A DNA stretch of 64,000 bases from an uncultured Methanosarcinales archaeon. Its GTDB lineage: Archaea; Nanobdellota; Nanobdellia; Woesearchaeales; ARS49. This document shows, piece after piece, positions 11,742 through 35,019 of this stretch; position 1 is the stretch's first letter, and every line of letters begins with the position of its first letter. The position numbers and the translations under genes are program-made. Where the stretch lies: contig CAYUPS010000001.1 in NCBI GenBank assembly GCA_964445485.1, positions 76,941 through 140,940 of the forward strand, read 5' to 3'. The notes under the pieces are model-generated. The model was given only the letters and a program-made list of their open reading frames with translations. It was not told the DNA's origin and did no database searches.

Positions 11742-12410
11742 ATGGAACTCACCTGGCTCGGCGACTCCAGCATCCTCCTCCAAACACAAGGCACGACCAT
11801 CTACATCGACCCCGTCCCCCCGCTCGAAGGCTGGCCTCGCAGCATGCCCGCCGCAGACCTCATCCTCCTCTCCCACGACCACCCCACCCACTTCTCCCAC
11901 GCAGCCCTGCGGCAGCTGCGCAAAGACGGCACCGCAGTCTGGGGCGCAAAAGAAGTCGCCGCCCAACTCTACGGCTGCCTCCCCCTCAGTGAAGGCAGCC
12001 TCCTCGAATTCCGGCACATCCGCCTCCACGCCACCCCCGCCTACAACCCCACACCGCCCCGCTCAGGACCCCCCGGCATCAAGCTCACGCACGCGCGCGG
12101 CGATGCCATCGGCTTCCTGCTCGAACTCGAAGACAAACGCCTCTACTACGCAGGCGACATCGGCCTCATGCCGGAGCTGCGCCAACTCAGCTGCGACATC
12201 GCACTCCTACCAGTCGGCGGCACACTGACACTCCGCGCCAAAGACGCAGCGGACGCCGTCGAGCGGCTCGGCGCCCGCACCGCCATCCCCCTGCACTGGG
12301 GCGGCATCGAAGGGACACGCGATGACGCAGAGCTCTTCAAAGAGATCGTCGAAGACAAGAAACTCGCCACCGCCATCATCCCCGAGAGAAACCGGCCGAT
12401 CCATCTCTAG
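11742..12410 (+). CDS. metallo-beta-lactamase-fold hydrolase
   Basis: 222 aa; LSHDHPTHF metal-binding motif, later His/Asp ligands; AATTTTAAG ~28 nt upstream. Confidence 0.8.
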   Translation: MELTWLGDSSILLQTQGTTIYIDPVPPLEGWPRSMPAADLILLSHDHPTHFSHAALRQLRKDGTAVWGAKEVAAQLYGCLPLSEGSLLEFRHIRLHATPAYNPTPPRSGPPGIKLTHARGDAIGFLLELEDKRLYYAGDIGLMPELRQLSCDIALLPVGGTLTLRAKDAADAVERLGARTAIPLHWGGIEGTRDDAELFKEIVEDKKLATAIIPERNRPIHL

Positions 12411-15352
12411 GGCGAGATGCCCTGCAGCAGGATCGAGTGCAACGACGAATTCTTTGAAACACCGCTCTTCGCAGGGAAGAGCGACTCAGCGATGGACTCA
12501 TTCAGGACATCCGCCGGCGCACCCGAGCCATTCTTCACCATAGGCGGCAGGGCCACGTTAGCAGGAACGGAATTCTTCGCCGCAGACTGCCAGCCATGCA
12601 CCACTCGGTGCACCGTGATGCGCTGCGGCAGGCGCGCCTCGAACACCTTCTCGAACTGCGGCACGCTCTCCCCAGAGAACAGGCGCACGAGCGTCATGTC
12701 AAGAGCAGCATCATCGACCAGCGCGGACCAGTACGAGCCGTTCACATCCTTTATCACCAGCACGCTGAAATCTGATTTCGCATCAGCGTACTTGCGCACG
12801 CGCCGCACACCACCCTCCACCACCGCAAGCCCTGAGGGACGCAAGCCATTCTGCACCGCATCCATCGACGAGAGATTGACGAGGAAATTCGTGCACGCGA
12901 GAAGACCTGAGCCAGCAGACGAGCAGTACGCGACATTCGAGACATTGATGCCTGCCTCGCGGACGTGCGAATCCGCAAGCGAGAGAAGCTTCAGCCGCGC
13001 ATCAGACTCGCTCAGGTTGAACCTGCTCGAGAGCACACGAGTGGCGTTATCCATGTCCAACCCTGCCGTCGCCTCAATCATCGCGCCATCAACAAGCGAC
13101 CAGGAAGCGAGAGCCATCATCTGCGGCAGCTTCTGGAACGCATCCTCAGTAATCACGAGATACGCAGGCTGTGGCGAGCAGTCAGTCAGGTCTATCGCGC
13201 TCTGCGGCAAACCATTATCCCTCGCCATCGCTACTGCAGAGGAGCGGTTGATCGCCGCGCGCAGCAGCGTCGTCTCATCTCCGAATGCATCGAGCGCGGC
13301 ATGGATGGTGCCGCAATTCTCCATGCGCAGTATCGCCTCGCTCTCAACCAGAGATGTTGAGACCATCGCGCGCGGGAACCAGTAGGAGTGTGCATTGTCG
13401 AACGCAGCATTGTCCCACAGCGTCGCTTTGCCAGCCACCGCCTGCCACACATACCCCTCATCCCACCACGCATCGATGATCGCAGAACCATTGACCTCCC
13501 GTTCAAAGAAGAGTCCGACATCGGTGTGCGCGGCGGTCACCGCAGGCAGCATAGACGTCTGAGCCCAGTACGGAAGGAATGGAGGCAGGAATACCGAGAG
13601 TATGACTACTGCGACGACGCACTGCGTTCCCCAGCGGGGAAGCCTGAAATGCACTGCTGCAGGAATCCTGCAGAGCGCAGGCCACACTGCGTGCAGGCCG
13701 AGAGCGAAGAGGAATAGCGCGGGAGCCGCGAGGTAGAAGCTGAAGCGGCGGGCGAGAAGCGTCGCGATAAAGACAGGCACAAACCAGCATGCGGCCAGGA
13801 GGAGCGCGGGCGGAGGGGAGAGCCTGCGGAGTCCCCGATACGCGAGATACGCCAGCGTCGCCGCGAGAGAGAGCAGCATCACGTAGCCGCCGAGGAAATT
13901 GACAAGGACTGGGAAGGGCGTTCTCTGCAGCTCACTGATTGACCCGATGAGCGAAGGATAGACCGCATTGAGCGTGCGTCCCGTCAAGTACCACTCAGCC
14001 CGCTGAACGAACTGCGTTCCAAGCAGCCAGTACGCTGCGAGAGCGCATGCCGCAACAAAGCCGGCGAGCGTGCCATAACTCCAGCGTTCGCGGCGGAACA
14101 CCACCACGCGGAGTATCCTGAAAAATCCGAACACTGCAGCGAACATGCAGAGGACGATGAGGATATATGGCCACCCCTGCCAGATGTTGCTGAACACCCA
14201 TAGGCTCGCGGCGAACGCGACAGCATACGCCGCTCGCGGGCGCCATGAACACGCCGTGCAAGCACAGACTGCGAAGAGTACGGCAGCAATCGAGAGCATG
14301 ATCGCGGGACTCTGCGTATCGGTGTTACCCGCGAACGTGCCTAAGAAGAACAGCGGGTGTACTGCGAAAAGAACTCCCGCAATGCCCGCGATCGCCAATG
14401 AGCGAGTCAACCTGAGCACGAGCAGCACGAACAGCAGCGCAGCGAGAGTGCCGATGACTGCGGGGAGAAAGAACAGCGATTCGAGCAGAGTGGATGAGCT
14501 GGCCAACGCAACACCGAGCAACCCGTCAGATGCGTACCCCGCGCTTTGCCCGGCGAAACGATTGTTGAAGCGGTGGTAGGCAGCCAGTATCTTCGGCCAC
14601 CAGTTCAAATCGACAGAGACACCATAGGGCGCAATACGCAGCCAGTCATGCTTCCTGCCTGCGCTATCGATTGGCGCCTCCGACCCAGTCTCGACTATAT
14701 TGCGCGCCATGCGGTAGTACAGGTACGTATCCGCTTTGTAGAGGAACGGCTGTAGCGTGTCCGCTGACCCCTGAGCATAGAGCGATTTGAGCGATTCCAC
14801 ATCCTGCGCGACCCTCGCGGCGTACGCGGGCGACGCGCGCAGCTCGGCGAGGCGCGCATTCACCTCCCTCTCCAGACCCGCATCAGAGATGTACGGATAG
14901 GCTGCCTTGGTCTCCGCGATTGCCTGACGGACTGCATCGTTGTCGGCGAGAGCTGCAGCACGGGCATCCAACTGCGGAAGATATGCGGTTCGCGTGAGAG
15001 TCATCCATGCCGCGCCTCCGACAACCAAGAAGACAAGAACCAACGCCCACCACCGGAAGGCAGGACTGTCGCGCGCGCGTTGCTCCGGCGTATCGAGAGG
15101 GACCGTGGTGCTCGTCACCACAACATCAGTATCGTCTTCGCGCTCGCGCAGAATCTTGACAGGGCGAACAGCACGGGACTTGGCGAGATCGGTAGCTTTG
15201 GGCGCGTGACGCGTGACTGGCTTGACAGTCGCCTTATCAGGAGTCTCCCCGCTCGCCGCGCGCTCGGCAGGCGCTTCTTTCTCTTTCTCCTTGCGCTGCG
15301 CATCGAGAGTCTTGCCTATGTCAAGCGATGCGCCGAAGTCGAACTCTCTCAT
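12407..15352 (-). CDS. aglB: archaeal oligosaccharyltransferase AglB (STT3 family)
   Basis: Polytopic N-terminal half plus soluble C-terminal domain with WWDEGY (WWDYG-type) motif; first external loop KADTYLYYRMARN (DxYxYR). Track ORF extends to 15544 but overlaps divergent gene; ATG 15352 preferred, TATATAAA (15390-15397, minus orientation) upstream. Confidence 0.88.
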   Translation of the reverse strand: MREFDFGASLDIGKTLDAQRKEKEKEAPAERAASGETPDKATVKPVTRHAPKATDLAKSRAVRPVKILREREDDTDVVVTSTTVPLDTPEQRARDSPAFRWWALVLVFLVVGGAAWMTLTRTAYLPQLDARAAALADNDAVRQAIAETKAAYPYISDAGLEREVNARLAELRASPAYAARVAQDVESLKSLYAQGSADTLQPFLYKADTYLYYRMARNIVETGSEAPIDSAGRKHDWLRIAPYGVSVDLNWWPKILAAYHRFNNRFAGQSAGYASDGLLGVALASSSTLLESLFFLPAVIGTLAALLFVLLVLRLTRSLAIAGIAGVLFAVHPLFFLGTFAGNTDTQSPAIMLSIAAVLFAVCACTACSWRPRAAYAVAFAASLWVFSNIWQGWPYILIVLCMFAAVFGFFRILRVVVFRRERWSYGTLAGFVAACALAAYWLLGTQFVQRAEWYLTGRTLNAVYPSLIGSISELQRTPFPVLVNFLGGYVMLLSLAATLAYLAYRGLRRLSPPPALLLAACWFVPVFIATLLARRFSFYLAAPALFLFALGLHAVWPALCRIPAAVHFRLPRWGTQCVVAVVILSVFLPPFLPYWAQTSMLPAVTAAHTDVGLFFEREVNGSAIIDAWWDEGYVWQAVAGKATLWDNAAFDNAHSYWFPRAMVSTSLVESEAILRMENCGTIHAALDAFGDETTLLRAAINRSSAVAMARDNGLPQSAIDLTDCSPQPAYLVITEDAFQKLPQMMALASWSLVDGAMIEATAGLDMDNATRVLSSRFNLSESDARLKLLSLADSHVREAGINVSNVAYCSSAGSGLLACTNFLVNLSSMDAVQNGLRPSGLAVVEGGVRRVRKYADAKSDFSVLVIKDVNGSYWSALVDDAALDMTLVRLFSGESVPQFEKVFEARLPQRITVHRVVHGWQSAAKNSVPANVALPPMVKNGSGAPADVLNESIAESLFPAKSGVSKNSSLHSILLQGISP

Positions 15353-15387
15353 GCCCAAAAACCCCTGGCGCGGGCAGACGCCAGCAA

Positions 15388-15422
15388 CTATATAAACATT
15401 AGCAAGGCTAATTTTATATACG
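15388..15422. promoter_or_regulatory. back-to-back TATA boxes (TATATAAA 15390-15397 for aglB, TTTTATATAC 15413-15422 for epimerase)
   Basis: 90-bp divergent intergenic region 15353-15443. Confidence 0.55.
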
Positions 15423-15443
15423 AACCCTCGCAGGAGCATCCGC

Positions 15444-16388
15444 ATGCGATACCTTGTAACCGGCGGCGCCGGCTTCATCGGCAGCCATGTCTGCGAAGCG
15501 CTGCTGGCGCGCGGAGACCATGTGACCTGCGTCGATGATTTCAATGATTATTACGACCCGGCCGCCAAAGAGCGCAACATACAGACTAGCCTGCAGTCCC
15601 CCCGATTCATTGTCTGCCGCGACAGCATCACGGACTTTGGCGCCATGCAGCGGGTATTTCAGCGAGAGACACCCGAGAGAGTCATCCATCTCGCTGCGCG
15701 TGCAGGCGTCAGGCCCTCCATCAGCCAGCCATTGCTGTATTCGCACGTGAACATCACAGGCACGCTGAACCTGCTGGAGCTCGCGGCGCAGCAAGGCATC
15801 CAGAATTTCGTCTTTGCCTCCAGCTCATCGGTCTACGGCGAGCGCAACAGCGTCCCTTTCAAAGAGACCGATCCCGTGGACAACCCTATCAGCCCGTACG
15901 CCGCGACGAAAAAATCTGGCGAGCTGCTCTGCCACGTATATTCGCGCCTGCACAACCTTCCCTGCTCGTGCCTGCGGTTCTTCACAGTGTACGGACCGCG
16001 TGGCAGACCCGACATGGCACCGTACAAGTTCACAAGGGCAGTCATGGAAGGCCAGCAAATCGAGATGTACGGCGATGGATCGACGCTGCGGGACTACACG
16101 TACGTCGATGACATCGTCGCAGGGGTCATCGCCGCCGCGGACAAACCTCACGCATACGAGATATTCAACCTCGGCAATTCCAGCCCAGTCACGCTCAAAG
16201 ACTTCATCGCGACCATCGAGAAAGTCGCAGGAGCGCAGGCACGGATTGTCCAGAAGCCGCTGCAGCAAGGGGACGTATCCAAGACATACGCAGACACGAG
16301 CAAGGCGCAGCGCATGCTCTCCTGGCAGCCAAGCACCCCGCTCGAAGAGGGACTGCGCCGCACGCATGCCTGGCTGCAGCACCCCTAG
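15444..16388 (+). CDS. NAD-dependent nucleotide-sugar epimerase (UDP-glucuronate 4-epimerase-like, extended SDR)
   Basis: 314 aa; VTGGAGFIGSH Rossmann, FNDYYD signature typical of UDP-GlcA 4-epimerases, YAATK catalytic motif; TTTTATATAC 27 nt upstream. Confidence 0.85.
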   Translation: MRYLVTGGAGFIGSHVCEALLARGDHVTCVDDFNDYYDPAAKERNIQTSLQSPRFIVCRDSITDFGAMQRVFQRETPERVIHLAARAGVRPSISQPLLYSHVNITGTLNLLELAAQQGIQNFVFASSSSVYGERNSVPFKETDPVDNPISPYAATKKSGELLCHVYSRLHNLPCSCLRFFTVYGPRGRPDMAPYKFTRAVMEGQQIEMYGDGSTLRDYTYVDDIVAGVIAAADKPHAYEIFNLGNSSPVTLKDFIATIEKVAGAQARIVQKPLQQGDVSKTYADTSKAQRMLSWQPSTPLEEGLRRTHAWLQHP

Positions 16389-16427
16389 TGCATAAGGTAT
16401 TTAAGGGACTGCACAGAGGGAGAACGC

Positions 16428-17366
16428 ATGGCGAAATACCTCGTGACTGGCGGCGCCGGCTTCATCGGCTCGCACATCGTCGATGCTCTCGTGGCACGCG
16501 GCGAAAATGTCGTCGTCTTCGACGACCTCAGCAGCGGCAGCGCCAAAAACGTAGCCCATCACGGCAAGAAGATAACATTCATGCAAGGCGATCTGCGCAA
16601 TCCTGACGCGGTCAAGAAGGCGACCGAGGGATGCGACTTCGTGTTCCACCAAGCCGCCCTCGCCAGCGTCCCGAAATCATTCGAGCGGCCGCATGACTTC
16701 ATCGACGTGAACGTCAAAGGGACCTACAACGTCTTCGCTGCTGCCCAAGAAGCGAGAGTCAAACGGGTGGTCTGGGCCAGCTCGAGCGCGGTCTACGGCG
16801 ACGCCACGAAGATGCCGCAACGAGAGGGCGAAGAGGGCACCTGCATCTCTCCCTATGCGTTCACCAAGAAAGCTGGCGAAGATCTTGCCCGCATGTTCTG
16901 GAAAGCCCACGGCCTCGAGACTGTCTCCCTGAGGTACTTCAACGTCTTCGGTCCGCGCCAGGAACCAGACAGCCCCTATGCTGCAGCGATACCAAAATTC
17001 ATCAAAGCGATCGCCAACGACCAGCCTCCGACCATATTCGGCGACGGGGAGCAGACACGGGATTTCACGTACGTCGCGAATGTCGTCGACGCCAACCTCC
17101 GAGCGATGAGCGCGCCTGCCGCCAGAGTCGCAGGCGAGGTCTTCAACATCGCGCTCGGCAAACCTACCTCAGTCAACCAGCTCATCCGCGAGATCAGCGC
17201 ATTCCTCGGAAAGAAAAACAAGGCGGCCCACCTGCCTCCCCGGCAGGGGGACATCTTGCACAGCTGCGCGGACATCAGCAGAGCGGCAGCAGCCTTCGGC
17301 ATGCGGGAATTCATCCCGCTCAAAGAAGGCATCAAGAACACGATCGAGTGGCACACGCGAACATAG
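16428..17366 (+). CDS. NAD-dependent nucleotide-sugar 4-epimerase/dehydratase (extended SDR)
   Basis: 312 aa; VTGGAGFIGSH, YAFTKK (YxxxK) catalytic motif; SD-like GAGGGAG upstream. Confidence 0.85.
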   Translation: MAKYLVTGGAGFIGSHIVDALVARGENVVVFDDLSSGSAKNVAHHGKKITFMQGDLRNPDAVKKATEGCDFVFHQAALASVPKSFERPHDFIDVNVKGTYNVFAAAQEARVKRVVWASSSAVYGDATKMPQREGEEGTCISPYAFTKKAGEDLARMFWKAHGLETVSLRYFNVFGPRQEPDSPYAAAIPKFIKAIANDQPPTIFGDGEQTRDFTYVANVVDANLRAMSAPAARVAGEVFNIALGKPTSVNQLIREISAFLGKKNKAAHLPPRQGDILHSCADISRAAAAFGMREFIPLKEGIKNTIEWHTRT

Positions 17367-17405
17367 ACCGCCGAGTTCTTATGCGAAGCCACATATGAAG
17401 GCACC

Positions 17406-20992: not shown

Positions 20993-21003
20993 CGCGGAGC
21001 AAT

Positions 21004-26249: not shown

Positions 26250-26341
26250 GCACCACGCAGCACGGGACGGCTTATAAACCTGCATCGGCGGTCCGCGCGC
26301 GTTAGCTTATTAACCTCCGGCGGATTGCGCAGCGCACACCC

Positions 26342-28340: not shown

Positions 28341-29404
28341 AATCCTCCCTGCTCCGCATCCTTGCCTGCCCCGCCTGCGCTGGTGCGCTCACTCTCCAGA
28401 CGTTTCGCAAGGAAGGGATGGAGATACTCGACGGCAAGCTAGCATGCCGATCCTGCGCAAGCGCGTACCCCCTCATTGCAGGGGTACCGCGCATGCTCGC
28501 GAGAGAATACCTCGGAGAAGTGGAGAGGATGCATCCTTCATTCTTCAAGGAGCATCCGGAATTCAGCACGGGGCGCTCAGCGCAGAAGAAGGGCCTCTCG
28601 CCCAAAGAGAGGACACAGAGGAGCTTCGGATATCAGTGGACTCGCTTCAGCCAGATGCATGAGACATTCCGGCACAACTTCCTCAATTATCTCTACCCCT
28701 CGACAGAACATTCATTCAAAGGCAAGGTTGTACTCGATGCAGGGTGCGGCTTCGGCAGGCATCTTTTCTATGCAGCCACGTTCGGCGCGAAGACGGCGGT
28801 CGGGCTTGATTTCAGCATCGCTGCTGACGTCTCATGGAACAACACCCGGCGGCTCCCCCACGCACATGTCGTCCAAGGAGACATCTATCATCCACCATTC
28901 CGACGAGAGACGTTCGATTTGGTCTATAGCGTCGGCGTGCTGCACCACCTGCCGACACCCGAGAGCGGATTCAGGAGCCTGCTGCCCCTCGTAAGACGCG
29001 GCGGAATCGCGCATGTATGGCTTTACAGCAAGGCGCGCCCGATCAGCAATACCTTGATGGAGGCTATCAGGGTATTGACAAGGAATCTACCCTTCAATGT
29101 GCTCTATTGCTTGTGCTACGCCTGCGCAATCCTCGACTACACAGCGATACGCGCATATACCGCGCTCGCGAGCGACAGAGGAACGAAACCTGTAGCGGAG
29201 GCCATCGCTCCCGCCCGCATCAAACTCTACTCCCGCTATCCCTTCCAGGTCTGCTTCGCGGATTGGTTCGACCGGCTCTCAGCACCCATCAGGTTCTATT
29301 ATGACGAGAAGGAAGTGCGCGCATGGTTCGAACGCGCAGAACTCTCAGATATACACACAAGCCCCACAGGGAGATACGGATGGCGGGGCAGGGGGCGAAC
29401 GTGA
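28337..29404 (+). CDS. Trm112-like zinc-ribbon + class I SAM-dependent methyltransferase
   Basis: ATGA overlap with upstream gene; N-term CPACAG...CRSC; VLDAGCGFGRH motif I. Confidence 0.75.
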   Translation: MKSSLLRILACPACAGALTLQTFRKEGMEILDGKLACRSCASAYPLIAGVPRMLAREYLGEVERMHPSFFKEHPEFSTGRSAQKKGLSPKERTQRSFGYQWTRFSQMHETFRHNFLNYLYPSTEHSFKGKVVLDAGCGFGRHLFYAATFGAKTAVGLDFSIAADVSWNNTRRLPHAHVVQGDIYHPPFRRETFDLVYSVGVLHHLPTPESGFRSLLPLVRRGGIAHVWLYSKARPISNTLMEAIRVLTRNLPFNVLYCLCYACAILDYTAIRAYTALASDRGTKPVAEAIAPARIKLYSRYPFQVCFADWFDRLSAPIRFYYDEKEVRAWFERAELSDIHTSPTGRYGWRGRGRT

Positions 29405-30462
29405 AAGCGCTCGTCATCGTCTCGCACGAAAACGGCCCTGCTGCGAGGTTCCGCATCTATCCGCTTCTCGATCGACTTCGCCAGAGAAGCATCGATGCAA
29501 CAGTCATCCCTTTTGTCGACGCCGCGTTCCACCGAGTATTATACAAAAAAGGGCACAGCGTTGCCAAGGCGTGGCATCTCGCACGGGCGCTCGTCCGTGC
29601 AGCGATACTGCCCATCCGCGCGCTGCGATATGATGTCATCCTCGTGCAACGAGAGGCATGCCTGATCGGCCCCCCGCTTATCGAATGGATGCTTTCGATA
29701 CTCAGACCACTCGTGTATGATTTCGACGATGCGGTTTATCTCGCGCCCAGCGGCCTGCGAGGTCTCCGCAAATGGCTCAGGAATCCTGAGAAGACCTCTC
29801 GGATCATCAAACGCAGCACGATAGTTCTCGCAGGGAACCAGACTTTGGCGAAGTATGCCCTGCTGCACAACCAAGCAGTGCGCATTCTCCCCACAGTTAT
29901 CGACACAGCATACTACCGCCCAGGGAACCGCCGCAATACAGTGCCCGTGATAGGCTGGACGGGCAGCAAGACCACGCTAGAATATATCCGACGGCTCACC
30001 CCCGCGCTAGAGCGTCTCGCCAAACAGCACACATTCGAGCTGCACATCATCGCCAATGATATCGCGCCATGGCAGATCACTGGCGTGAACACGAAATTCA
30101 TGGGATGGGAGCCTGACAAAGAGCTCCAGAGAATACAGAGTTTCGATATCGGACTGATGCCTCTTCCAGATGATGAGTGGACACGGGGCAAATGCGGGCT
30201 CAAGGCATTGCAATACATGGCATGCGGTGTCGCAACAGTCGTTTCGCCCGTCGGGATGAATCGGGAACTCATCGCAAACGGCGACAGCGGCCTGCACGCA
30301 ACGACGGATGAAGAGTGGTGCCGCGCAGTATCCTCCCTGCTAGAAGATGAGGCTCTCCGGGCGAGACTTGGCACGAACGGGCGGCTGACTGTCGCGTCGA
30401 GCTATTCCCTCGACACGGCAGCACCGATACTTGCAGCAGCACTTCTAGACGCAGGTGAATGA
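29380..30462 (+). CDS. glycosyltransferase family 4
   Basis: ATG 29380 within track ORF 29323; C-terminal ...GLKALQYMACGVATVVSPVG motif. Confidence 0.75.
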   Translation: MAGQGANVKALVIVSHENGPAARFRIYPLLDRLRQRSIDATVIPFVDAAFHRVLYKKGHSVAKAWHLARALVRAAILPIRALRYDVILVQREACLIGPPLIEWMLSILRPLVYDFDDAVYLAPSGLRGLRKWLRNPEKTSRIIKRSTIVLAGNQTLAKYALLHNQAVRILPTVIDTAYYRPGNRRNTVPVIGWTGSKTTLEYIRRLTPALERLAKQHTFELHIIANDIAPWQITGVNTKFMGWEPDKELQRIQSFDIGLMPLPDDEWTRGKCGLKALQYMACGVATVVSPVGMNRELIANGDSGLHATTDEEWCRAVSSLLEDEALRARLGTNGRLTVASSYSLDTAAPILAAALLDAGE

Positions 30463-31595
30463 ACATGGCAAAGATAGCGCACCTCATCACTCGTCTCATC
30501 CACGGCGGTGCGGATGAGAACACCATGCTGACTGTCGAGGGCCAGCTGCGCAACGGCCATGAGGTCACGATTGTCGTCGGGGAGGAATATGATGACGCGC
30601 TCGTCCAGAGTATGCGCGAGAAGGGCGCTGCATTTCACAGCGTGCCGCTGCGTCATTTCTCGCTCAAGAGCGCGATGCGCTGTGTCCGCCCGCTCGCGGA
30701 GTACCTGCGAGGGCAGGAGTTCGATATAGTCCACACGCATGAGACTGAGATGGGGATTGTCGGGCGACTCGCCGCGAGACGCGCAGGGGTTCCCTTCATC
30801 GTGCACACGGTGCACGGGGTTCCGTTCTCGCCACACCGCCCGCTATGGCTCAATACCTTCGTGTCGATTCTTGAGAGGTATTGCGCGCGGTTCACTGACG
30901 CGATCATCACTAATTCGGACAGCATCCGGGAAGAATATCTGCGCAGGAGGATCGGCCGCCGACGCCAGTACGTGACGGTGCACAGCGGCATCGACCTTCG
31001 GAAGTACGCGAGGCCTCTGCGGCCCGATGTCACTGCGCGACCGACGATAACAATCATCGCGCGGTTGGCGCAGGGCAAAGGCCATGGCGATCTCCTCAAG
31101 GCTGTCGCACGGCTGCGAGGGAAAATCCGCGGCCTGCGATGCATGATCGTCGGCGACGGAGAGCGGCGCGATGCGATCGCGCTCGCCATCGCGCGGCTGG
31201 GACTCAATAAGACTGCGAGTATCCTGGGCCATCGCGAAGACATTCCCGCCATCCTCGCGCAAACGACCGTCCTCGCGCTGCCCGCGTACTGGGAAGGGAC
31301 GCCCCGGGCCATCACTGAAGCGATGGCTGCCGGTGTTCCCGTTGTTGCGACGCCTGTCGGCGGTATCGCCGAGCAAGTGGAGCATGGTGTGAGCGGCTAT
31401 CTCGTGCCAGTCAAGGACCCGCTCGCGCTCGCGGACGCGATCGAGAAGATACTCCAGGACAGCGAGCTCGCCCACTCGATGGGAGCGGCGGGAAGGCATC
31501 GCGCAAAACAGTTCTCCAAAGAGGCCATGGTCCATGGCATCGAAGATGTCTATGACGCCCTCCTCAGATCGCACGGCGCCCTCCAGAAACCTTAA
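30459..31595 (+). CDS. glycosyltransferase family 4
   Basis: 378 aa; ATGA overlap; EGTPRAITEAMAAGVPVVATPVGG motif. Confidence 0.8.
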   Translation: MNMAKIAHLITRLIHGGADENTMLTVEGQLRNGHEVTIVVGEEYDDALVQSMREKGAAFHSVPLRHFSLKSAMRCVRPLAEYLRGQEFDIVHTHETEMGIVGRLAARRAGVPFIVHTVHGVPFSPHRPLWLNTFVSILERYCARFTDAIITNSDSIREEYLRRRIGRRRQYVTVHSGIDLRKYARPLRPDVTARPTITIIARLAQGKGHGDLLKAVARLRGKIRGLRCMIVGDGERRDAIALAIARLGLNKTASILGHREDIPAILAQTTVLALPAYWEGTPRAITEAMAAGVPVVATPVGGIAEQVEHGVSGYLVPVKDPLALADAIEKILQDSELAHSMGAAGRHRAKQFSKEAMVHGIEDVYDALLRSHGALQKP

Positions 31596-31620: not shown

Positions 31621-32628
31621 ATGCCCGCTCTGCTCACGTACGCGAATATCGCGCTCTCGTTCTTCGCGACGCTCCTCGTGCTGCCGTACTGGATCAGGCG
31701 CGCGAGAGAGCACGGTTTTGTCGGGACTGACATGCAGAAGCTCGACAAGCCGAAAGTCGCGGAGATGGGAGGCATCTGCGCGGTCTTGGGCATCATCGTC
31801 GGTCTGCTCACATATGTCGGCCTGCAGGTCTTCATCTATCATAGCTTCAATCCCGTGCTGTTCCAGCTGGCGGCGACGACGAGCGTGCTCATCGCGTGCA
31901 TGATCGGCCTGATCGACAACCTGCTGGGCTGGAAGATCGGGCTGCGCCAGTACCAGAAGGTGCTGCTGACGCTGCTCATCCCAATCCCGCTCATGGTCGT
32001 GAACGCGGGCGAGCATATCATGACACTGCCGCTCGTCGGGAACATCGATTTCGGCATCATCTATCCTCTTCTTATCATCCCGCTCGGCATCATCGGCGCG
32101 TCGAACGCGTTCAACATGCTCGCAGGCATGAACGGCCTCGAGGCGGGGCAGGGCATGCTGATCCTCGGCACGCTGGGATATATCGCGTGGGGGACGGGGC
32201 ACTCGCCGGCGGCATTGATCGCCGCGTGCGCTGTCGCTGCGCTGCTCGCGTTCTGGCTCTTCAACCGCTATCCTGCAAGGGTGTTCCCTGGCGATCCGCT
32301 CACGTACAGCGTGGGCACCATCATCGCGATTGTCGCCATCTTGGGCAACATGGAGAAGTTCGCGCTCATCCTGTTCATCCCGTACTTCGTCGAGTTCGTG
32401 CTGAAATTGCGCGGGGATTTCAAGAAGGAGAGCTTCGCGCGCGTGCGGCATGACGGGGCTCTGGAGAACCAGCATGCGCAGTGGTACTCGCTGACGCACG
32501 TGGCCGTGTCATTCCTGCGACGCGTCAAGGGGTCGGCGTATGAGCAGCAGGTGGTGTGGGCGATCCATCTCGCGCAGGCATTGCTGTGCATCATCGTGCT
32601 CTTCCTCTACCAACCGCCGATCGCCTGA
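31621..32628 (+). CDS. aglH: UDP-GlcNAc:dolichyl-phosphate GlcNAc-1-phosphate transferase (AglH / GPT, MraY-WecA family)
   Basis: 335 aa polytopic; NAFNMLAGMNGLEAG motif of polyprenyl-phosphate hexose-1-P transferases. Confidence 0.85.
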   Translation: MPALLTYANIALSFFATLLVLPYWIRRAREHGFVGTDMQKLDKPKVAEMGGICAVLGIIVGLLTYVGLQVFIYHSFNPVLFQLAATTSVLIACMIGLIDNLLGWKIGLRQYQKVLLTLLIPIPLMVVNAGEHIMTLPLVGNIDFGIIYPLLIIPLGIIGASNAFNMLAGMNGLEAGQGMLILGTLGYIAWGTGHSPAALIAACAVAALLAFWLFNRYPARVFPGDPLTYSVGTIIAIVAILGNMEKFALILFIPYFVEFVLKLRGDFKKESFARVRHDGALENQHAQWYSLTHVAVSFLRRVKGSAYEQQVVWAIHLAQALLCIIVLFLYQPPIA

Positions 32629-32632
32629 GCAT

Positions 32633-33463
32633 ATGCGCGTCCATGTCTTCGGCAGCGGCATCATCGCCCAGGGATTCTCGCGAGGATTGCTGCGGCGGGA
32701 CCATGTCATGTCTGCATCGGATACGCCAACGCATGATGCGCGGGAGGTGTGGGACGCTCTCGGCGGAGCGCGGCTCGACACCGTGCTCGATTGCTCGGAG
32801 CTGCGCGATGCGTACGCGTGCGAGCGCGGTCCGCAGGAAGCGTTCGCGCGCAACGTCCTCGGCCCGCTGACACTCGCAGAGTACTGCGCAGAGACGGGCA
32901 TATCCCTGACGCGGGTCACGAGCGGGCACATCTATGAGGGAGACGTGTGCGGCTGGCCGCATGGCGAAGCCGCGGTGCCGACGTATTGCAAGAGTGTGCA
33001 CAGCCGCACGGTCGCGATGGCGCAGCAGCTCCTGCCAACGGATGCGCTGCAACTTCGCATCGGATCGATCGTCATGGGCGAGCGCCATCCGGAGAATCTG
33101 CTGACGCATCTCGCGGACTGCGGGTATGGCGGAATCGTGCCGGAGAGCGTGATCACGCTCGATGATCTGGTGCGGACCGGGATCACGCTCATCACGCAGA
33201 GGGCAACGGGCGCGTACAACGTGGCCAATCCCGGCGGGATGTCTGAGAAGGATATCATGCAGGAATACCGCCGCCTGGTCGATCCGGCGGCGCGTTTTGA
33301 GGCGCTCAATCCCGTCGGCATCGGGTATGCGAATCCGCTGCGGACGTATTGCGTGCTGGGGACGGAGAAGCTGGAGGCAGCGCGCATCGTTTTGCCTTGC
33401 GCGCGCGATGCGGTGCGGGAGTGCTGCGAGGATTACTTCTTGGGGCTCCTGTCAGGGACGTAG
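32633..33463 (+). CDS. RmlD-like NAD(P)-dependent sugar-nucleotide reductase/epimerase (tentative)
   Basis: ATG 32633 within track ORF 32540; atypical Rossmann VFGSGIIAQGF; RmlD-like length and position in glycan cluster. Confidence 0.45.
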   Translation: MRVHVFGSGIIAQGFSRGLLRRDHVMSASDTPTHDAREVWDALGGARLDTVLDCSELRDAYACERGPQEAFARNVLGPLTLAEYCAETGISLTRVTSGHIYEGDVCGWPHGEAAVPTYCKSVHSRTVAMAQQLLPTDALQLRIGSIVMGERHPENLLTHLADCGYGGIVPESVITLDDLVRTGITLITQRATGAYNVANPGGMSEKDIMQEYRRLVDPAARFEALNPVGIGYANPLRTYCVLGTEKLEAARIVLPCARDAVRECCEDYFLGLLSGT

Positions 33464-33714
33464 CGGATGCTGACGTCCTCATCGCAGAACGCTTCCTCTT
33501 CGTCCGCGGTGCCTGTGACGATGCGCCAGAGCGCCCTGCCGACGCTCGCGAGGCGCGATGTCTCTTCGGCGTGGTTGCGCATGACCCCTGGCGATAGCAT
33601 ATGGATGACCCCGTATCGTCGGTGGGCAAGGGGATATTTAACCATTCTGTCGAGAAAATCACGGAATCGCTCACGGGCGTAAGCTTTATAATAGGTCTTC
33701 GGATAGCGCGGCGC

Positions 33715-35019
33715 ATGAACTTGGACGAGCGAGTCAAGGGCACAGTCATCGGCAGCCTCGGCCTCGGCTATGTCGGCCTCCCGCTCGCCGTCGCCATGGC
33801 CAAGCACTATCCCGTCATCGGGTATGACATGAACGCCCAGAAGATCGCCATGCTCAAAGCAGGCCAGGACCCCACCAACGAGGTCGGTCCCGATGGCATC
33901 AAGGCGACCACCGCGCAGTTCACCACCGATGCGGCGGAACTCGGCAAGAGCAACTTCATCATCGTCGCCGTACCGACACCTGTCACTGCGGCGAAAGTCC
34001 CTGATCTGACTGCCATCATGAACTCCGCCGACACGATTGGCAAGCACATCAAAAAAGGCACCACGGTCGTGCTCGAGAGCACCGTGTACCCGGGCGTGAC
34101 CGAAGAGGTCTTCGGCCCACGCATCGCCAAAGCGTCAGGCCTCGAGATAGGCAAGGAGTTCTACCTCGGTTACTCTCCTGAGCGCATCAACCCCGGCGAC
34201 ACGGAGCATACCGTCGAGAAGATCAAGAAGATCGTCGCCGGCCAGGACGAGGAGACCCTCAAGTACATCGCCGCAGTCTACGCCAAACCCATCAAAGCGG
34301 GCCTGCACCTCGCCCCCAGCATCAAGGTCGCCGAGATGAGCAAAGTCATCGAGAACACGCAACGAGACATGAATATCGCATTCGTCAACGAACTGAGCCG
34401 CATGTGCCGCGCCGAAGGCATCGACGTCAAGGACGTGCTCGACGCGGCAGGCACGAAATGGAACTTCATCCGCATGCGCCCCGGCATCGTCGGCGGGCAC
34501 TGCCTCCCCGAGGATCCGTGGTACATGCTGCAGCGCGCGCTCGAGCACGGCCACATGAGCGCGCTCATCCAGAGCGCCCGCAGCATCAACGACACCATCC
34601 ACAAGGACGTCAGCAGCATCATCCTCAACGGCTTCAACGAGGCGGAGAAGGTCCCGCGCCGAAGCTCGCTCCTCATCATGGGCCTCACGTTCAAGGAGAA
34701 CGTCAATGACTACCGCCACTCGGGCGCCAAGTACGTCATCGACGCCCTCAAGGAGCAGAAAGTCACGCTCTTCGGCTACGACCCCCACCTCGACGCTGCG
34801 ACAGTCTCGCACGAATTCAAGGTGCCCAGCGTCACGCCGGACGCGCTGCCGCAGAGAGTCGACGGCATCGTCGACCTCGCACCGCACGCCGCATTCAAGC
34901 GCAACGACCTCGCGTACTGGCGTTCGCTCTGCAACAGCACCCCTCTCTTCTTCGACCTCGCCCGCCAGTTCGACAAGAAGGCTGCCAAAGACGCAGGCTT
35001 CCTCTACCTCCACCTGTAA
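33715..35019 (+). CDS. nucleotide-sugar dehydrogenase (UDP-glucose/UDP-ManNAc dehydrogenase family)
   Basis: ATG 33715 within track ORF 33601; TTTATAAT 33685-33692 upstream; VIGSLGLGYVGLPLAVAMAKHYPVIGYD N-terminal NAD-binding motif. Confidence 0.88.
   Translation: MNLDERVKGTVIGSLGLGYVGLPLAVAMAKHYPVIGYDMNAQKIAMLKAGQDPTNEVGPDGIKATTAQFTTDAAELGKSNFIIVAVPTPVTAAKVPDLTAIMNSADTIGKHIKKGTTVVLESTVYPGVTEEVFGPRIAKASGLEIGKEFYLGYSPERINPGDTEHTVEKIKKIVAGQDEETLKYIAAVYAKPIKAGLHLAPSIKVAEMSKVIENTQRDMNIAFVNELSRMCRAEGIDVKDVLDAAGTKWNFIRMRPGIVGGHCLPEDPWYMLQRALEHGHMSALIQSARSINDTIHKDVSSIILNGFNEAEKVPRRSSLLIMGLTFKENVNDYRHSGAKYVIDALKEQKVTLFGYDPHLDAATVSHEFKVPSVTPDALPQRVDGIVDLAPHAAFKRNDLAYWRSLCNSTPLFFDLARQFDKKAAKDAGFLYLHL

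What the first reader, a model, noticed from the sequence alone, without database searches (positions are those of the whole stretch)
12407..35019. ~22.6 kb N-glycosylation / surface glycan island with AglB, AglH, flippase, 7-8 glycosyltransferases, nucleotide-sugar tailoring enzymes and two zinc-ribbon methyltransferases
The stretch is contiguous and very tightly packed, with many ATGA/TGATG overlaps and convergent 3' overlaps. It encodes:
- the oligosaccharyltransferase AglB (WWDEGY motif)
- AglH-like GlcNAc-1-P transferase
- a Wzx-like flippase
- four or five GT4, two GT2 and one or two GT-C enzymes
- two extended-SDR epimerases (one with the UDP-GlcA 4-epimerase FNDYYD signature)
- a UDP-sugar dehydrogenase
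- AsnB
- an RmlD-like reductase
- two methyltransferases fused to CxxC ribbons.

The size and enzyme variety predict a long, modified (uronic acid, amidated, methylated) glycan. In a genome also encoding giant surface proteins, this is the likely decoration machinery for them.
Basis: partly seen in the sequence, partly recalled or inferred. Interest (0 to 1): 0.6.

Follow-up and report, generated by a model that had tools for sequence, protein, structure and literature searches.

The report
DPANN archaeal N-glycosylation gene island
This 22.6 kb stretch of an uncultured DPANN (Woesearchaeota-like) archaeon is a real but fairly ordinary protein N-glycosylation gene cluster built around a very divergent oligosaccharyltransferase, and the giant surface protein encoded nearby has no acceptor site for it at all, so it is not the cluster's target.

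Summary
Window 12407-35019 holds 18 tightly packed genes (about 97% coding), and every one has a glycan-related domain:
- AglB/STT3
- an AglH/DPAGT1-type initiating transferase
- a Wzx-type flippase
- four GT4, two GT2 and two PMT_2-type GT-C enzymes
- three SDR-type proteins
- a TviB/WbpO-like UDP-HexNAc 6-dehydrogenase
- an AsnB-type amidotransferase
- two methyltransferases fused to zinc ribbons

The host is a high-GC DPANN archaeon. Its eIF2-gamma is at most 66% identical to Woesearchaeota/Nanoarchaeia MAGs.

AglB is extremely divergent: at most 31% identical to any of 1.8 billion representative proteins, with WWDEG in place of WWDYG. It still keeps the catalytic acidic residues, and its model matches only PglB/AglB/STT3 structures.

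Relatives share the backbone GT4-GT4-AglH-NOG1-L31e-S19e but carry other glycan genes upstream. This is therefore the lineage's variable glycosylation locus.

The giant neighbour (5237 aa, one N-terminal membrane helix) has 216 Asn and no N-X(not P)-S/T sequon, against 28 expected. Its only four N-x-S/T are N-P-S/T. A second Cys-rich 970-aa protein also has none. AglB's own external domain has 10 against 2.6 expected. An NxS/T-specific transferase therefore seems active, and the giant proteins appear selected to escape it.

Verdict: new member of a known kind.

The parts
12407..15352 (-). AglB, the oligosaccharyltransferase (981 aa; WWDEGY at residues 629-634, window 13451-13468)
   Evidence: Pfam STT3 scores 45.8 bits against a cutoff of 24.5. 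D208, D345, E474 and W630/G633/Y634 are invariant or near-invariant in alignments with homologues. The AlphaFold model has pLDDT 81.8 and pTM 0.79. Its top 19 Foldseek PDB hits are all PglB/AglB/STT3. The external C-terminal domain carries 10 sequons against 2.6 expected.
15444..16388 (+). Extended SDR, UDP-glucuronate/galacturonate 4-epimerase-like (FNDYYD motif)
   Evidence: Pfam Epimerase/GDP_Man_Dehyd. Best PDB matches are 5u4q, 6zl6 (an entry set I recall as B. cereus UDP-GlcA 4-epimerase; the PDB table names it only 'Epimerase domain-containing protein') and MoeE5. The motif is visible in the sequence.
16428..17366 (+). Extended SDR, UDP-HexNAc / UDP-HexNAcA 4-epimerase-like (WbpP/TviC/WbgU type)
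   Evidence: Best NCBIfam hit is TviC at 206.7 bits, below the equivalog cutoff of 760. Best PDB matches are 6dnt, WbpP and WbgU. A 51% identical orthologue sits in the syntenic locus L086.
17406..19298 (+). AsnB-family glutamine-dependent amidotransferase, inferred to amidate a uronic-acid carboxyl group
   Evidence: Pfam Asn_synthase plus GATase_7. Best NCBIfam hit is TIGR03108, the XrtA/PEP-CTERM EPS amidotransferase, at 643.9 bits (cutoff 816.9); asn_synth_AEB passes its cutoff. The best PDB match is hydroxyamidotransferase 7ylz, ahead of AsnB.
19282..20745 (-). Polytopic GT-C glycosyltransferase (PMT_2 family), copy 1
   Evidence: Pfam PMT_2 scores 42.2 bits against a cutoff of 26.1. No NCBIfam hit and no meaningful PDB sequence match (one chance-level hit to an unrelated reductase, E 0.026). 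It is not a recent paralogue of copy 2.
21034..22068 (+). GT4 (GT-B) glycosyltransferase a
   Evidence: Pfam Glyco_transf_4 plus Glycos_transf_1. A TATA-like box lies about 25-30 nt upstream of ATG 21034.
22047..22910 (-). SAM methyltransferase with an N-terminal 4-Cys zinc ribbon
   Evidence: Pfam Methyltransf_23/11/12/25. CxxC pairs at residues 5-8 and 33-36.
22989..24275 (+). Wzx/AglR-type polysaccharide flippase
   Evidence: Pfam Polysacc_synt, E 8.9e-15.
24275..25123 (+). GT2 glycosyltransferase a
   Evidence: Pfam Glycos_transf_2. Its ATG at 24275 overlaps the Wzx stop codon as TGATG.
25035..26285 (-). GT4 glycosyltransferase b (PglJ/PglH-like)
   Evidence: Pfam GT4 domains. Best NCBIfam hit is PglJ at 176 bits, below its cutoff.
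26342..27061 (+). GT2 dolichyl-phosphate-hexose synthase-like enzyme (AglJ/DPM1 type)
   Evidence: Best NCBIfam hits are AglJ and the haloarchaeal Dol-P-hexose transferase, both below cutoff. The only PDB hit is P. furiosus Dol-P-Man synthase 5mlz, E 1.1e-16.
27051..28340 (+). Polytopic GT-C glycosyltransferase (PMT_2 family), copy 2, translationally coupled to the Dol-P-hexose synthase
   Evidence: Pfam PMT_2 scores 41.2 bits against a cutoff of 26.1. It overlaps the upstream gene by 11 nt.
28337..29404 (+). SAM methyltransferase fused to a Trm112-like zinc ribbon
   Evidence: Pfam Trm112p at 32.4 bits plus Methyltransf_11/25. NCBIfam Trm112_arch at 60.1 bits, below the cutoff of 77. CxxC pairs at residues 11-14 and 37-40.
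29380..30462 (+). GT4-type glycosyltransferase c
   Evidence: Only the C-terminal Glycos_transf_1 half is matched. A 33% identical orthologue occupies the same position in L086.
30459..31595 (+). GT4 glycosyltransferase d
   Evidence: Pfam GT4 domains. A 31% identical orthologue lies directly upstream of AglH in L086.
31621..32628 (+). AglH/Alg7 (DPAGT1)-type UDP-HexNAc:dolichyl-phosphate HexNAc-1-P transferase
   Evidence: Pfam Glycos_transf_4 (PF00953), E 1.1e-31. The best PDB match is human DPAGT1, ahead of MraY. Orthologues 50-64% identical are found across Woesearchaeota/Nanoarchaeia.
32633..33463 (+).
   Evidence: Only a weak, partial RmlD_sub_bind hit at 32.8 bits. NCBIfam rmlD scores 27.7 bits against a cutoff of 224.
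33601..35019 (+). Nucleotide-sugar 6-dehydrogenase, UDP-N-acetylhexosamine type (TviB/WbpO/Cap5O-like)
   Evidence: All three UDPG_MGDP_dh Pfam domains are present. NCBIfam NDP-sugDHase passes its cutoff. The best equivalog is TviB at 314 bits, below its cutoff of 592. Best PDB matches are Cap5O, 4r16 and 3g79. AglH-TviB adjacency recurs in L087 and L088.
52811..64000 (-). Not part of the machinery. C-terminal 3729 aa of a 5237-aa N-terminally anchored, Cys-rich giant protein with no N-glycosylation sequon
   Evidence: No sequons against 17.5 expected for the window part and 28.1 for the full length. The four N-x-[ST] are all NP[ST], and the mirror motif occurs 35 times.
47668..50580 (-). Not part of the machinery. 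A 970-aa protein with 7.7% Cys, also free of sequons
   Evidence: No sequons against 4.0 expected, P = 0.011.

Best explanation
The region is the protein N-glycosylation (agl) locus of an uncultured, high-GC DPANN archaeon of the Woesearchaeota/Nanoarchaeia group.

Proposed mechanism (family assignments are shown; the order of steps and the substrates are inferred):
1. The AglH/DPAGT1-type enzyme primes dolichyl phosphate with HexNAc-1-P on the cytoplasmic face.
2. Nucleotide sugars are supplied by three enzymes. The TviB/WbpO-like dehydrogenase makes UDP-HexNAc uronic acid from UDP-HexNAc. The WbpP/TviC-like enzyme epimerises at C4. The FNDYYD-type SDR interconverts UDP-GlcA and UDP-GalA. The AsnB-type amidotransferase probably converts a uronate carboxyl group to an amide.
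3. Four GT4 enzymes and one GT2 extend the lipid-linked glycan. Two zinc-ribbon methyltransferases methylate it.
4. The Wzx-type protein flips the glycan across the membrane.
5. On the outer face, the DPM1/AglJ-like GT2 and its translationally coupled PMT_2-type GT-C, plus a second GT-C, add one or two sugars from Dol-P-hexose. This parallels AglD/AglS in Haloferax or the lumenal ALG enzymes.
6. AglB, a very divergent but catalytically intact oligosaccharyltransferase, transfers the glycan to Asn in N-X-S/T of exported proteins, including its own external domain.

The locus sits at a conserved chromosomal position (GT4-GT4-AglH-NOG1...L31e-S19e), and its upstream gene content varies between relatives. 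The giant Cys-rich surface proteins encoded nearby are not substrates, because they have been purged of sequons.
For: - Domain content: all 18 genes carry glycan-related domains.
- AglB: Pfam STT3 scores above its gathering cutoff. Full HMMER search finds 908 homologues whose WWDxG motif has a variable fourth residue, so WWDEG is in-clade variation. D208, D345 and E474 are invariant and W630, G633 and Y634 are invariant or near-invariant. The model has pLDDT 81.8, and its top 19 PDB fold matches are exclusively PglB/AglB/STT3, E 1e-18 to 6e-10.
- AglH: best solved relative is human DPAGT1.
- GT2b: only solved relative is Pyrococcus Dol-P-Man synthase, and it overlaps the GT-C gene by 11 nt.
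- Dehydrogenase and epimerases: closest to TviB/Cap5O, WbpP/WbgU and UDP-GlcA 4-epimerases.
- Comparative context: AglB of this clade lies beside AglH and a flippase in L001. In an Aenigmarchaeota MAG it lies beside a flippase, methyltransferase, GT2 and SDR. L086 shares TviC-like, GT4c, GT4d, AglH, NOG1, hyp435, L31e and S19e with a different upstream cassette. AglH-TviB(-TviC) adjacency recurs in L087 and L088.
- Indirect evidence that an NxS/T-specific transferase is active: the AglB external domain has 10 sequons against 2.6 expected. Two large exported Cys-rich proteins have 0 against 28.1 and 4.0 expected, and only N-P-S/T is tolerated.
Against: - No glycan, lipid carrier or glycoprotein has been observed. 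Every substrate assignment is by family resemblance.
- No enzyme reaches an NCBIfam equivalog cutoff apart from the generic asn_synth_AEB and NDP-sugar dehydrogenase models.
- AglB gets no NCBIfam hit, and its sequence matches solved STT3 proteins only around the WWD motif.
- The DK/MI motif is only approximately recognisable.
- UDP-GlcA, the presumed substrate of the FNDYYD epimerase, has no dedicated UDP-glucose dehydrogenase in the window.
- The PMT_2-type GT-C enzymes could serve a different glycoconjugate.
- Nothing in the window shows how a DPANN cell would obtain dolichol.
- A second aglB elsewhere in the genome cannot be excluded.
Confidence: 0.72

Rival explanations
1. Composite locus. 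Only the AglB and AglH (plus GT4c/GT4d) core serves N-glycosylation. Most of the intervening genes (Wzx, GT2, GT4a/b, the two PMT_2 GT-C enzymes with the Dol-P-hexose synthase, the methyltransferases, the amidotransferase) build a different surface glycoconjugate: an O-linked glycan, a lipoglycan or an exopolysaccharide.
For: In L001 the AglB-AglH-flippase core is compact and lacks the extra genes. Genes from 12407 to 31595 have lower GC3 (0.64-0.77) than the backbone and AglH/TviB (0.81-0.86). PMT_2 is the family of protein O-mannosyltransferase and ArnT-like enzymes. The best-scoring subfamily for the amidotransferase is EPS-associated. One relative's locus (L085) contains a Wzy_C polymerase/ligase-like gene and a PMT_2 gene.
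Against: The window has no Wzy polymerase, chain-length regulator or export component. There is only one flippase and one initiating transferase for the whole locus. GT4c and GT4d also have low GC3 yet are ancestral, syntenic partners of AglH, so low GC3 does not mark a foreign module. Known archaeal agl clusters likewise mix GT2/GT4, methyltransferases and Dol-P-sugar-dependent external steps (established knowledge of Haloferax AglD/AglS/AglP).
Confidence: 0.2
2. One reading: the island is the machinery that decorates the giant surface proteins of this genome.
For: A giant protein of more than 5000 aa and a 970-aa Cys-rich exported protein are encoded 13-18 kb away. PMT_2-type enzymes could in principle O-glycosylate Ser/Thr.
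Against: The giant protein has 216 Asn and no usable sequon against 28.1 +/- 4.6 expected. Its only N-x-S/T are N-P-S/T, and the mirror control [ST]xN gives 35. Distant bacterial homologues of about 2180 aa have normal sequon counts of 24-32. The 970-aa protein also has none. In the cultivated DPANN Nanobdella aerobiophila, predicted surface proteins carry 13-52 predicted N-glycosylation sites each (bioRxiv 10.1101/2023.10.27.564410, read), so a sequon-free giant is the opposite of a typical N-glycan carrier.
Confidence: 0.05
3. The STT3-like protein is a degenerate or neofunctionalised paralogue, not the working N-oligosaccharyltransferase. The functional AglB is encoded elsewhere.
For: The motif is WWDEG rather than canonical WWDYG. 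There is no NCBIfam hit. The protein is at most 31% identical to any homologue. It has a clade-specific N-terminal 'SLDIGK' peptide and a long helical insertion in external loop 1.
Against: The catalytic acidic residues and the WWD triad are invariant or near-invariant across the clade, whose members show every kind of residue at the fourth motif position, including Y. The fold is a full-length OST. The gene sits in glycosylation clusters in three lineages. Sequon statistics in the window indicate that an NxS/T-reading enzyme is active.
Confidence: 0.05

Closest known systems
Archaeal agl N-glycosylation gene clusters (Haloferax volcanii aglB-centred cluster; Methanococcus agl genes; Sulfolobus AglH/AglB pathway)
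   Same: An AglB oligosaccharyltransferase is clustered with GT2/GT4 glycosyltransferases, a Polysacc_synt-type flippase, sugar-nucleotide tailoring enzymes and a sugar methyltransferase. A Dol-P-hexose synthase is paired with a GT-C enzyme for an external step, as with AglD/AglS. Cluster content varies between relatives.
   Different: Initiation here is by a DPAGT1/AglH-type phosphosugar transferase, as in Crenarchaeota, methanogens and eukaryotes, rather than the haloarchaeal AglJ route. The host is a DPANN archaeon, a group with no experimentally defined N-glycan (none turned up in my literature searches). AglB belongs to a very divergent clade with WWDxG, an N-terminal SLDIGK peptide and a long EL1 insertion. 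No enzyme reaches an Agl equivalog score.
STT3/AglB/PglB oligosaccharyltransferase catalytic subunits (PDB 6gxc, 7e9s, 8age, 6s7t)
   Same: GT-C fold with a C-terminal external domain. It has a WWD motif, acidic residues in EL1 and TM-loop motifs, and a TIXE/SVSE-like 'SISELQ'.
   Different: Only 9-17% identity over structural alignments. The fourth motif residue is Glu rather than Tyr. There are about 100 extra cytoplasmic N-terminal residues and an insertion of about 85 residues in EL1. The DK motif reads 'DAFQK...MM'.
WbpO/WbpP/WbpS (Pseudomonas aeruginosa O6) and TviB/TviC (Salmonella Vi antigen) UDP-GalNAcA(N) pathway
   Same: The same trio of enzyme families is present: a UDP-HexNAc 6-dehydrogenase, a UDP-HexNAc(A) 4-epimerase and an AsnB-type amidotransferase.
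   Different: Scores are well below equivalog cutoffs (314 against 592; 207 against 760). The product would be built on dolichol and transferred to protein, not into LPS or capsule. Substrates are untested.
Polyprenyl-phosphate-sugar synthase plus GT-C pairs (DPM1/PMT, ArnC/ArnT, GtrB/GtrC, AglD/AglS)
   Same: A small GT2 of the Dol-P-Man synthase type lies directly upstream of, and overlaps, a polytopic PMT_2-family GT-C.
   Different: The GT-C proteins have no MIR domains and no detectable sequence similarity to solved PMT or ArnT structures. The acceptor (glycan, protein Ser/Thr or lipid) is unknown.

Membership tests
STT3/AglB/PglB oligosaccharyltransferase (GT66) | Polytopic GT-C membrane domain followed by an external C-terminal domain | tested here: met
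   The AlphaFold model has pLDDT 81.8 and pTM 0.79. Foldseek against the PDB gives PglB/AglB/STT3 as all of the top 19 hits, E 1e-18 to 6e-10. Pfam STT3 scores 45.8 bits against a cutoff of 24.5.
STT3/AglB/PglB oligosaccharyltransferase (GT66) | WWDYG motif, which binds the +2 Ser/Thr of the sequon | tested here: met
   The motif is WWDEG at residues 629-633, so the WWD triad is kept. Among the 150 closest homologues the fourth residue is F, Y, K, L, R, N, S, T, E, W or M.
STT3/AglB/PglB oligosaccharyltransferase (GT66) | Catalytic acidic residues in EL1 (DxD-type), a second acidic motif, and the TIXE/SVSE motif in EL5 | tested here: met
   D208 ('ADTYLYYR'), D345 ('GNTDT') and E474 ('SISELQ') are invariant in the 31-sequence alignment.
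STT3/AglB/PglB oligosaccharyltransferase (GT66) | DK or MI motif in the C-terminal domain | tested here: inconclusive
   'EDAFQKLPQMM' aligns with the clade consensus 'DMLxK'. The spacing is one residue off the canonical DxxK.
STT3/AglB/PglB oligosaccharyltransferase (GT66) | Transfers a lipid-linked glycan to Asn of N-X-S/T | not testable with these tools
   Support is indirect only: sequon enrichment in its own external domain and sequon purging in neighbouring exported giants.
Archaeal agl N-glycosylation cluster | An initiating dolichyl-phosphate glycosyl or phosphoglycosyl transferase encoded with AglB | tested here: met
   PF00953 scores E 1.1e-31. The best solved relative is human DPAGT1. 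The same gene is adjacent to AglB in L001.
Archaeal agl N-glycosylation cluster | A flippase candidate and soluble GTs for cytoplasmic assembly | tested here: met
   Polysacc_synt, four GT4 and GT2. The assignment is at family level only.
Archaeal agl N-glycosylation cluster | Membership of named Agl equivalogs (AglJ, AglM, Agl16 and others) | tested here: not met
   AglJ 88.7 against 325, AglM 143.7 against 670, Agl16 39-52 against 575 bits. The genes are analogues, not orthologues, of the named Agl proteins.
TviB/WbpO UDP-GlcNAc 6-dehydrogenase | NCBIfam equivalog score | tested here: not met
   314.4 bits against a cutoff of 592. The generic NDP-sugar dehydrogenase subfamily passes at 361 against 190. 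Best PDB matches are Cap5O and 4r16.
TviC/WbpP UDP-HexNAc(A) 4-epimerase | NCBIfam equivalog score and closest solved relatives | tested here: inconclusive
   206.7 bits against a cutoff of 760. The best PDB relatives are nonetheless 6dnt, WbpP and WbgU.
UDP-glucuronate 4-epimerase | FNDYYD-type motif and closest solved relatives | tested here: inconclusive
   The motif 'VDDFNDYYDP' is present. Best PDB matches are 5u4q, 6zl6 and MoeE5. No dedicated HMM was available.
RmlD dTDP-4-dehydrorhamnose reductase | NCBIfam equivalog score | tested here: not met
   27.7 bits against a cutoff of 224. Only about 105 residues match the Pfam model.
Protein O-mannosyltransferase (PMT, GT39) | PMT N-terminal GT-C domain plus MIR domains, and similarity to Pmt1/2/4 | tested here: not met
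   Only the generic PMT_2 domain is matched. There is no MIR domain and no sequence match to solved PMT or ArnT structures.
XrtA/PEP-CTERM EPS amidotransferase (TIGR03108) | NCBIfam cutoff | tested here: not met
   643.9 bits against a cutoff of 816.9. The generic glutamine-hydrolysing Asn synthase model passes at 519.9 against 267.

The most novel reading that the evidence does not exclude
Sequon purging. In this DPANN archaeon an active NxS/T-specific oligosaccharyltransferase exerts such strong selection that the largest exported proteins have been cleared of every usable acceptor site, leaving only N-P-S/T. These are a 5237-aa N-terminally anchored Cys-rich giant and a 970-aa Cys-rich neighbour.

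Other surface domains, for example AglB's own, are sequon-rich. The surface would then be deliberately divided into glycan-coated proteins and glycan-free giant proteins, the latter presumably for host contact or adhesion.

The giants may have been acquired from bacteria, whose distant homologues carry normal sequon numbers, and 'de-sequoned' afterwards. If this is general, sequon censuses could identify the functional contact proteins of uncultured episymbionts from sequence alone.
Probability: 0.4. Interest if true: 0.7.

Novelty: new member of a known kind. Interest (0 to 1): 0.45.

Why it matters
N-glycosylation in DPANN archaea is essentially uncharacterised experimentally. This locus gives a complete and testable parts list: an initiating DPAGT1-type enzyme, a HexNAc-uronic acid/amide supply, methylation, an external Dol-P-hexose step, and a highly divergent AglB clade.

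It also shows that the lineage keeps a variable glycan cassette at a fixed chromosomal site. That fits the idea that archaeal N-glycans act as strain-specific surface identity markers.

The more unexpected point is the complete absence of acceptor sequons from a 5237-residue exported protein next to this machinery. This is indirect genomic evidence that the oligosaccharyltransferase is active. It also suggests that these giant proteins, thought to mediate symbiont-host contact in DPANN, must stay unglycosylated. That idea can be tested by proteome-wide sequon statistics and by glycoproteomics.

Tried and rejected
- **Word-indexed AglB search.** The search of 5.8 billion proteins found nothing. 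This was a sensitivity limit, not absence: full HMMER found 908 homologues.
- **Back-translated pattern scans with AglB.** Scans of genome contigs and metagenome contigs found no relative. AglB alignments A1 and A2 were too divergent to yield search patterns.
- **Exact-sequence look-ups.** Look-ups of the window's AsnB-like protein and of the giant protein's contig returned nothing. The rest of the source genome, including any second aglB, could therefore not be inspected.
- **Haloarchaeal origin.** I first considered this because of the GC content and the roughly 1000-aa AglB. I rejected it because the proteins are basic (pI 9-11) and eIF2-gamma is closest to Woesearchaeota/Nanoarchaeia.
- **Mobile-element insertion.** I found no tRNA gene or flanking direct or inverted repeats at the island edges. 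GT4c and GT4d have low GC3 yet are syntenic with a distant relative, so low GC3 is not proof of recent transfer.
- **Synteny around eIF2-gamma.** PGM-eIF2g-DUF655-MBL is conserved in relatives, but none has AglB or island genes there.
- **GT-C proteins.** PDB sequence searches for the two proteins gave no meaningful hit, and they are not recent paralogues of each other. I did not model them, because no homologue alignment was available and single-sequence models are unreliable.
- **Giant protein domains.** Pfam gave no hit on the window part of the giant protein.
- **Literature.** Searches found no description of DPANN AglB clades or of sequon-free giant proteins. The library is limited, so this is not proof that none exists.

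Full report
**1. The observation**

Six-frame ORF listing with codon-position GC and domain searches against Pfam and NCBIfam show 18 consecutive genes between 12407 and 35019. All 18 have glycan-related domains.

In map order they are:
1. AglB/STT3, 12407-15352(-)
2. Extended SDR with the FNDYYD motif, 15444-16388
3. Second extended SDR, 16428-17366
4. AsnB-type amidotransferase, 17406-19298
5. PMT_2-type GT-C, 19282-20745(-)
6. GT4, 21034-22068
7. Methyltransferase with two N-terminal CxxC pairs, 22047-22910(-)
8. Polysacc_synt (Wzx-type) flippase, 22989-24275
9. GT2, 24275-25123
10. GT4, 25035-26285(-)
11. Short GT2 of the Dol-P-hexose synthase type, 26342-27061
12. Second PMT_2-type GT-C, 27051-28340
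13. Trm112-ribbon methyltransferase, 28337-29404
14. GT4, 29380-30462
15. GT4, 30459-31595
16. AglH/DPAGT1-type transferase, 31621-32628
17. Weak SDR-like protein, 32633-33463
18. Nucleotide-sugar dehydrogenase, 33601-35019

The flanks are housekeeping genes: a metallo-beta-lactamase-fold hydrolase on the left, and NOG1 GTPase and cation exchangers on the right.

Only about 757 bp of the 22.6 kb is intergenic. There are ATGA/TGATG start-stop overlaps and four convergent 3' overlaps. Many genes have a TATA-like box 25-30 nt upstream of the start codon, which suggests short or absent leaders.

**2. The organism**

The window encodes archaeal markers: eIF2-gamma, L31e, S19e, NOG1 and DUF655. The proteins are basic, with pI mostly 9-11, so this is not a haloarchaeon despite about 61% GC.

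A scan of 185,579 species genomes with eIF2-gamma returned 79 loci. The best, at 60-66% identity, are from Woesearchaeota / Nanoarchaeia MAGs. The organism is thus a high-GC DPANN archaeon with no close sequenced species representative. PGM-eIF2g-DUF655-MBL synteny is shared with those relatives.

**3. AglB**

The protein is very divergent:
- The word-indexed search of 5.8 billion proteins found nothing.
- phmmer against the PDB matched STT3A/B only around the WWD motif, at E about 0.2.
- A full HMMER pass over 1.8 billion representatives found 908 homologues. The best is only 31% identical.

Within the 150 best homologues the WWDxG motif carries F, Y, K, L, R, N, S, T, E, W or M at the fourth position, so WWDEG is in-clade variation.

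Alignments show D208 (EL1, 'ADTYLYYR'), D345 ('GNTDT'), E474 ('SISELQ', equivalent to TIXE/SVSE), W630, G633 and Y634 as invariant or nearly so. They also show two clade-specific features: a conserved cytoplasmic N-terminal peptide 'SLDIGK', and a helical insertion of about 85 residues in external loop 1.

An AlphaFold2 model built on that alignment is confident (pLDDT 81.8, pTM 0.79). Its top 19 Foldseek hits in the PDB are all oligosaccharyltransferase catalytic subunits: PglB, A. fulgidus AglB, and yeast and human STT3. I conclude that it is a bona fide OST of a divergent clade found in DPANN MAGs. One member comes from an Aenigmarchaeota MAG.

**4. The other enzymes**

- **AglH-like protein.** Its best solved relative is human DPAGT1, ahead of MraY. 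It has 50-64% identical orthologues throughout Woesearchaeota/Nanoarchaeia.
- **Dehydrogenase.** It is closest to TviB/WbpO and Cap5O-type UDP-N-acetylhexosamine dehydrogenases.
- **Second SDR.** It is closest to WbpP, WbgU and TviC.
- **First SDR.** It is closest to 5u4q, 6zl6 and MoeE5, which I recall as UDP-glucuronate 4-epimerases, and it carries FNDYYD.
- **Amidotransferase.** It scores best against the EPS-associated TIGR03108 subfamily, below cutoff. It is closer to a hydroxyamidotransferase structure than to AsnB.
- **GT2b.** Its only solved relative is Pyrococcus Dol-P-Man synthase. It overlaps the downstream PMT_2 GT-C gene by 11 nt, which is the classic pairing of a polyprenyl-P-sugar synthase with a GT-C.

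None of these reaches a named equivalog cutoff. The sugar identities are therefore inferences from family resemblance.

**5. Comparative context**

- In L001, a JGI contig that also carries NaCa-exchanger and hyp435 orthologues of the window, AglB (28% identical) lies directly beside AglH (51%) and a flippase.
- In an Aenigmarchaeota MAG, the clade's AglB is flanked by a deacetylase, methyltransferase, flippase, GT2, radical-SAM enzyme and SDR epimerase.
- In L086, a Woesearchaeote with 35% GC, the order TviC-like (51%), GT4c (33%), GT4d (31%), AglH (55%), NOG1 (40%), hyp435 (56%), L31e and S19e matches the window. Upstream, however, lies a different cassette: a CMP-sugar synthetase, an aminotransferase, a methyltransferase and further SDRs and GT4s.
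- AglH-TviB(-TviC) adjacency recurs in L087 and L088.

The locus is therefore the lineage's glycosylation locus at a conserved chromosomal position, with variable content.

Genes from 12407 to 31595 have lower GC3 (0.64-0.77) than the backbone (0.81-0.87). No tRNA gene or repeat marks the edges. The ancestral GT4c and GT4d share the low GC3, so I do not read the dip as proof of recent transfer.

**6. The link to giant surface proteins**

The ORF that runs off the window at 52811-64000(-) is the C-terminal 3729 residues of a 5237-aa protein (P0151, 100% identical). It has a single N-terminal hydrophobic helix and 6.1% Cys, so it is predicted to be extracellular.

Its sequon statistics are as follows:

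| Measure | Value |
|---|---|
| Asn residues | 216 |
| N-X(not P)-S/T sequons observed | 0 |
| Sequons expected from 500 shuffles | 28.1 +/- 4.6 |
| N-x-[ST] occurrences in total | 4, all N-P-[ST] |
| Mirror motif [ST]-x-N | 35 |
| S+T at offsets -3 to +3 other than +2 (window part) | 13-20 |
| S+T at offset +2 (window part) | 4 |
| Repeated 6-mers (window part) | none, so internal repeats do not explain the result |

Other proteins give the following comparison:
- The Cys-poor C-terminal 2200 residues of the giant are equally free of sequons.
- The neighbouring 970-aa protein with 7.7% Cys has 0 against 4.0 expected.
- Cytoplasmic proteins of the window are near expectation.
- AglB's external domain has 10 against 2.6 expected.
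- Distant bacterial homologues of the giant (about 2180 aa, 10% Cys) have 24-32 sequons, as expected by chance.
- In the cultivated DPANN Nanobdella, predicted surface proteins carry 13-52 predicted sites each (bioRxiv 10.1101/2023.10.27.564410).
- In the loci fetched from relatives, some large ORFs are strongly sequon-enriched and none is comparably depleted.

The simplest reading has two parts. An OST that reads N-X-S/T with Pro excluded is active in this organism. The giant Cys-rich proteins are under selection not to be N-glycosylated.

**7. Mechanism, rivals and verdict**

My best explanation (confidence about 0.7) is a complete AglB-dependent pathway. It initiates on dolichyl phosphate with AglH and extends the glycan in the cytoplasm with GT4/GT2 enzymes, using HexNAc, HexNAc-uronic and uronic acid donors. 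Amidation and methylation follow, then Wzx-type flipping, one or two external additions from Dol-P-hexose by the GT-C enzymes, and transfer by AglB.

The main rival (about 0.2) is that the variable middle part builds a second glycoconjugate, either O-linked or polysaccharide. The 'decorates the giants' reading and the 'inactive AglB paralogue' reading are each unlikely (about 0.05).

In kind, this is a new member of the known class of archaeal agl clusters. The divergent DPANN AglB clade and the sequon-free giant proteins are the parts worth following up.

Noticed in passing
window 52811-64000 (-); full protein P0151 (5237 aa): A giant, N-terminally anchored, Cys-rich protein has no N-X(not P)-S/T sequon among 216 Asn, against 28.1 +/- 4.6 expected. 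All four N-x-S/T are N-P-S/T, and the mirror motif occurs 35 times. Pfam finds nothing in the window part (C-terminal 3724 aa); the N-terminal ~1500 aa were not scanned. Distant homologues are bacterial proteins of about 2180 aa with 10% Cys and normal sequon counts, which hints at interdomain transfer followed by loss of sequons.
   Followed up: partly
window 47668-50580 (-): A 970-aa protein with 7.7% Cys and an N-terminal hydrophobic segment is also free of sequons (0 against 4.0 expected, P = 0.011). Its only family hit is a weak one to DUF4215, a Cys-rich repeat. The longer ORF call overlaps tRNA-Arg at 50615-50688, so the start at 50580 is more likely.
   Followed up: partly
window 12407-15352 (-), AglB residues 1-205: This AglB clade has two specific features. 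One is a conserved cytoplasmic N-terminal peptide (F/Y-x-x-SLDIGK-D/E-L) followed by a charged linker of variable length. The other is a helical insertion of about 85 residues in external loop 1, modelled with pLDDT about 90. The function of both is unknown.
   Followed up: partly
window 12407-31595 versus flanks: GC3 is 0.64-0.77 for AglB through GT4d, against 0.81-0.87 for the flanking housekeeping genes and for AglH and TviB. The dip includes GT4c and GT4d, which are syntenic with a distant relative. It may therefore reflect expression level or relaxed codon bias rather than recent transfer.
   Followed up: partly
window 11120-11383 (+) and 11376-11669 (+): Two tandem paralogous small genes (87 and 97 aa) are 78% identical over their first 88 nt. 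They encode a conserved N-terminal hydrophobic helix (M-E/D-x-x-K-x-I-x-x-A-x-LG-x-VSVLAIIGLVLMF), possibly small membrane or pilin-like proteins. Neither has a sequon.
   Followed up: no
window 15353-15443 and upstream of most island genes: TATA-like boxes (TTTATATA, TTATAAG, TTTAAAT and similar) lie about 25-30 nt upstream of many start codons. This implies leaderless or short-leader transcripts and at least nine transcription units in the island.
   Followed up: no
window 50615-50688 (-) and 51455-51525 (+): tRNA-Arg(TCG) and tRNA-Pro(TGG) lie between the two sequon-free Cys-rich genes, next to small Cys-rich or hydrophobic ORFs (51537-52097 and 52140-52814).
   Followed up: no
window 42904-45273 (+): The arginyl-tRNA synthetase ORF has about 230 residues ahead of the Arg_tRNA_synt_N domain. 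This is either an N-terminal extension or a start codon called too early.
   Followed up: no
loci L003, L004, L007-L009 and others: Many MAG records titled 'uncultured Methanosarcinales archaeon' carry eIF2-gamma and neighbouring genes most similar to this window, and they rank alongside records titled Woesearchaeota or Nanoarchaeia. The record titles look unreliable for taxonomy.
   Followed up: no
L001 versus window: Between the same pair of genomes AglB is only 28% identical, whereas AglH is 51%, the NaCa exchanger 46% and hyp435 63%. The oligosaccharyltransferase therefore evolves much faster than its neighbours.
   Followed up: no
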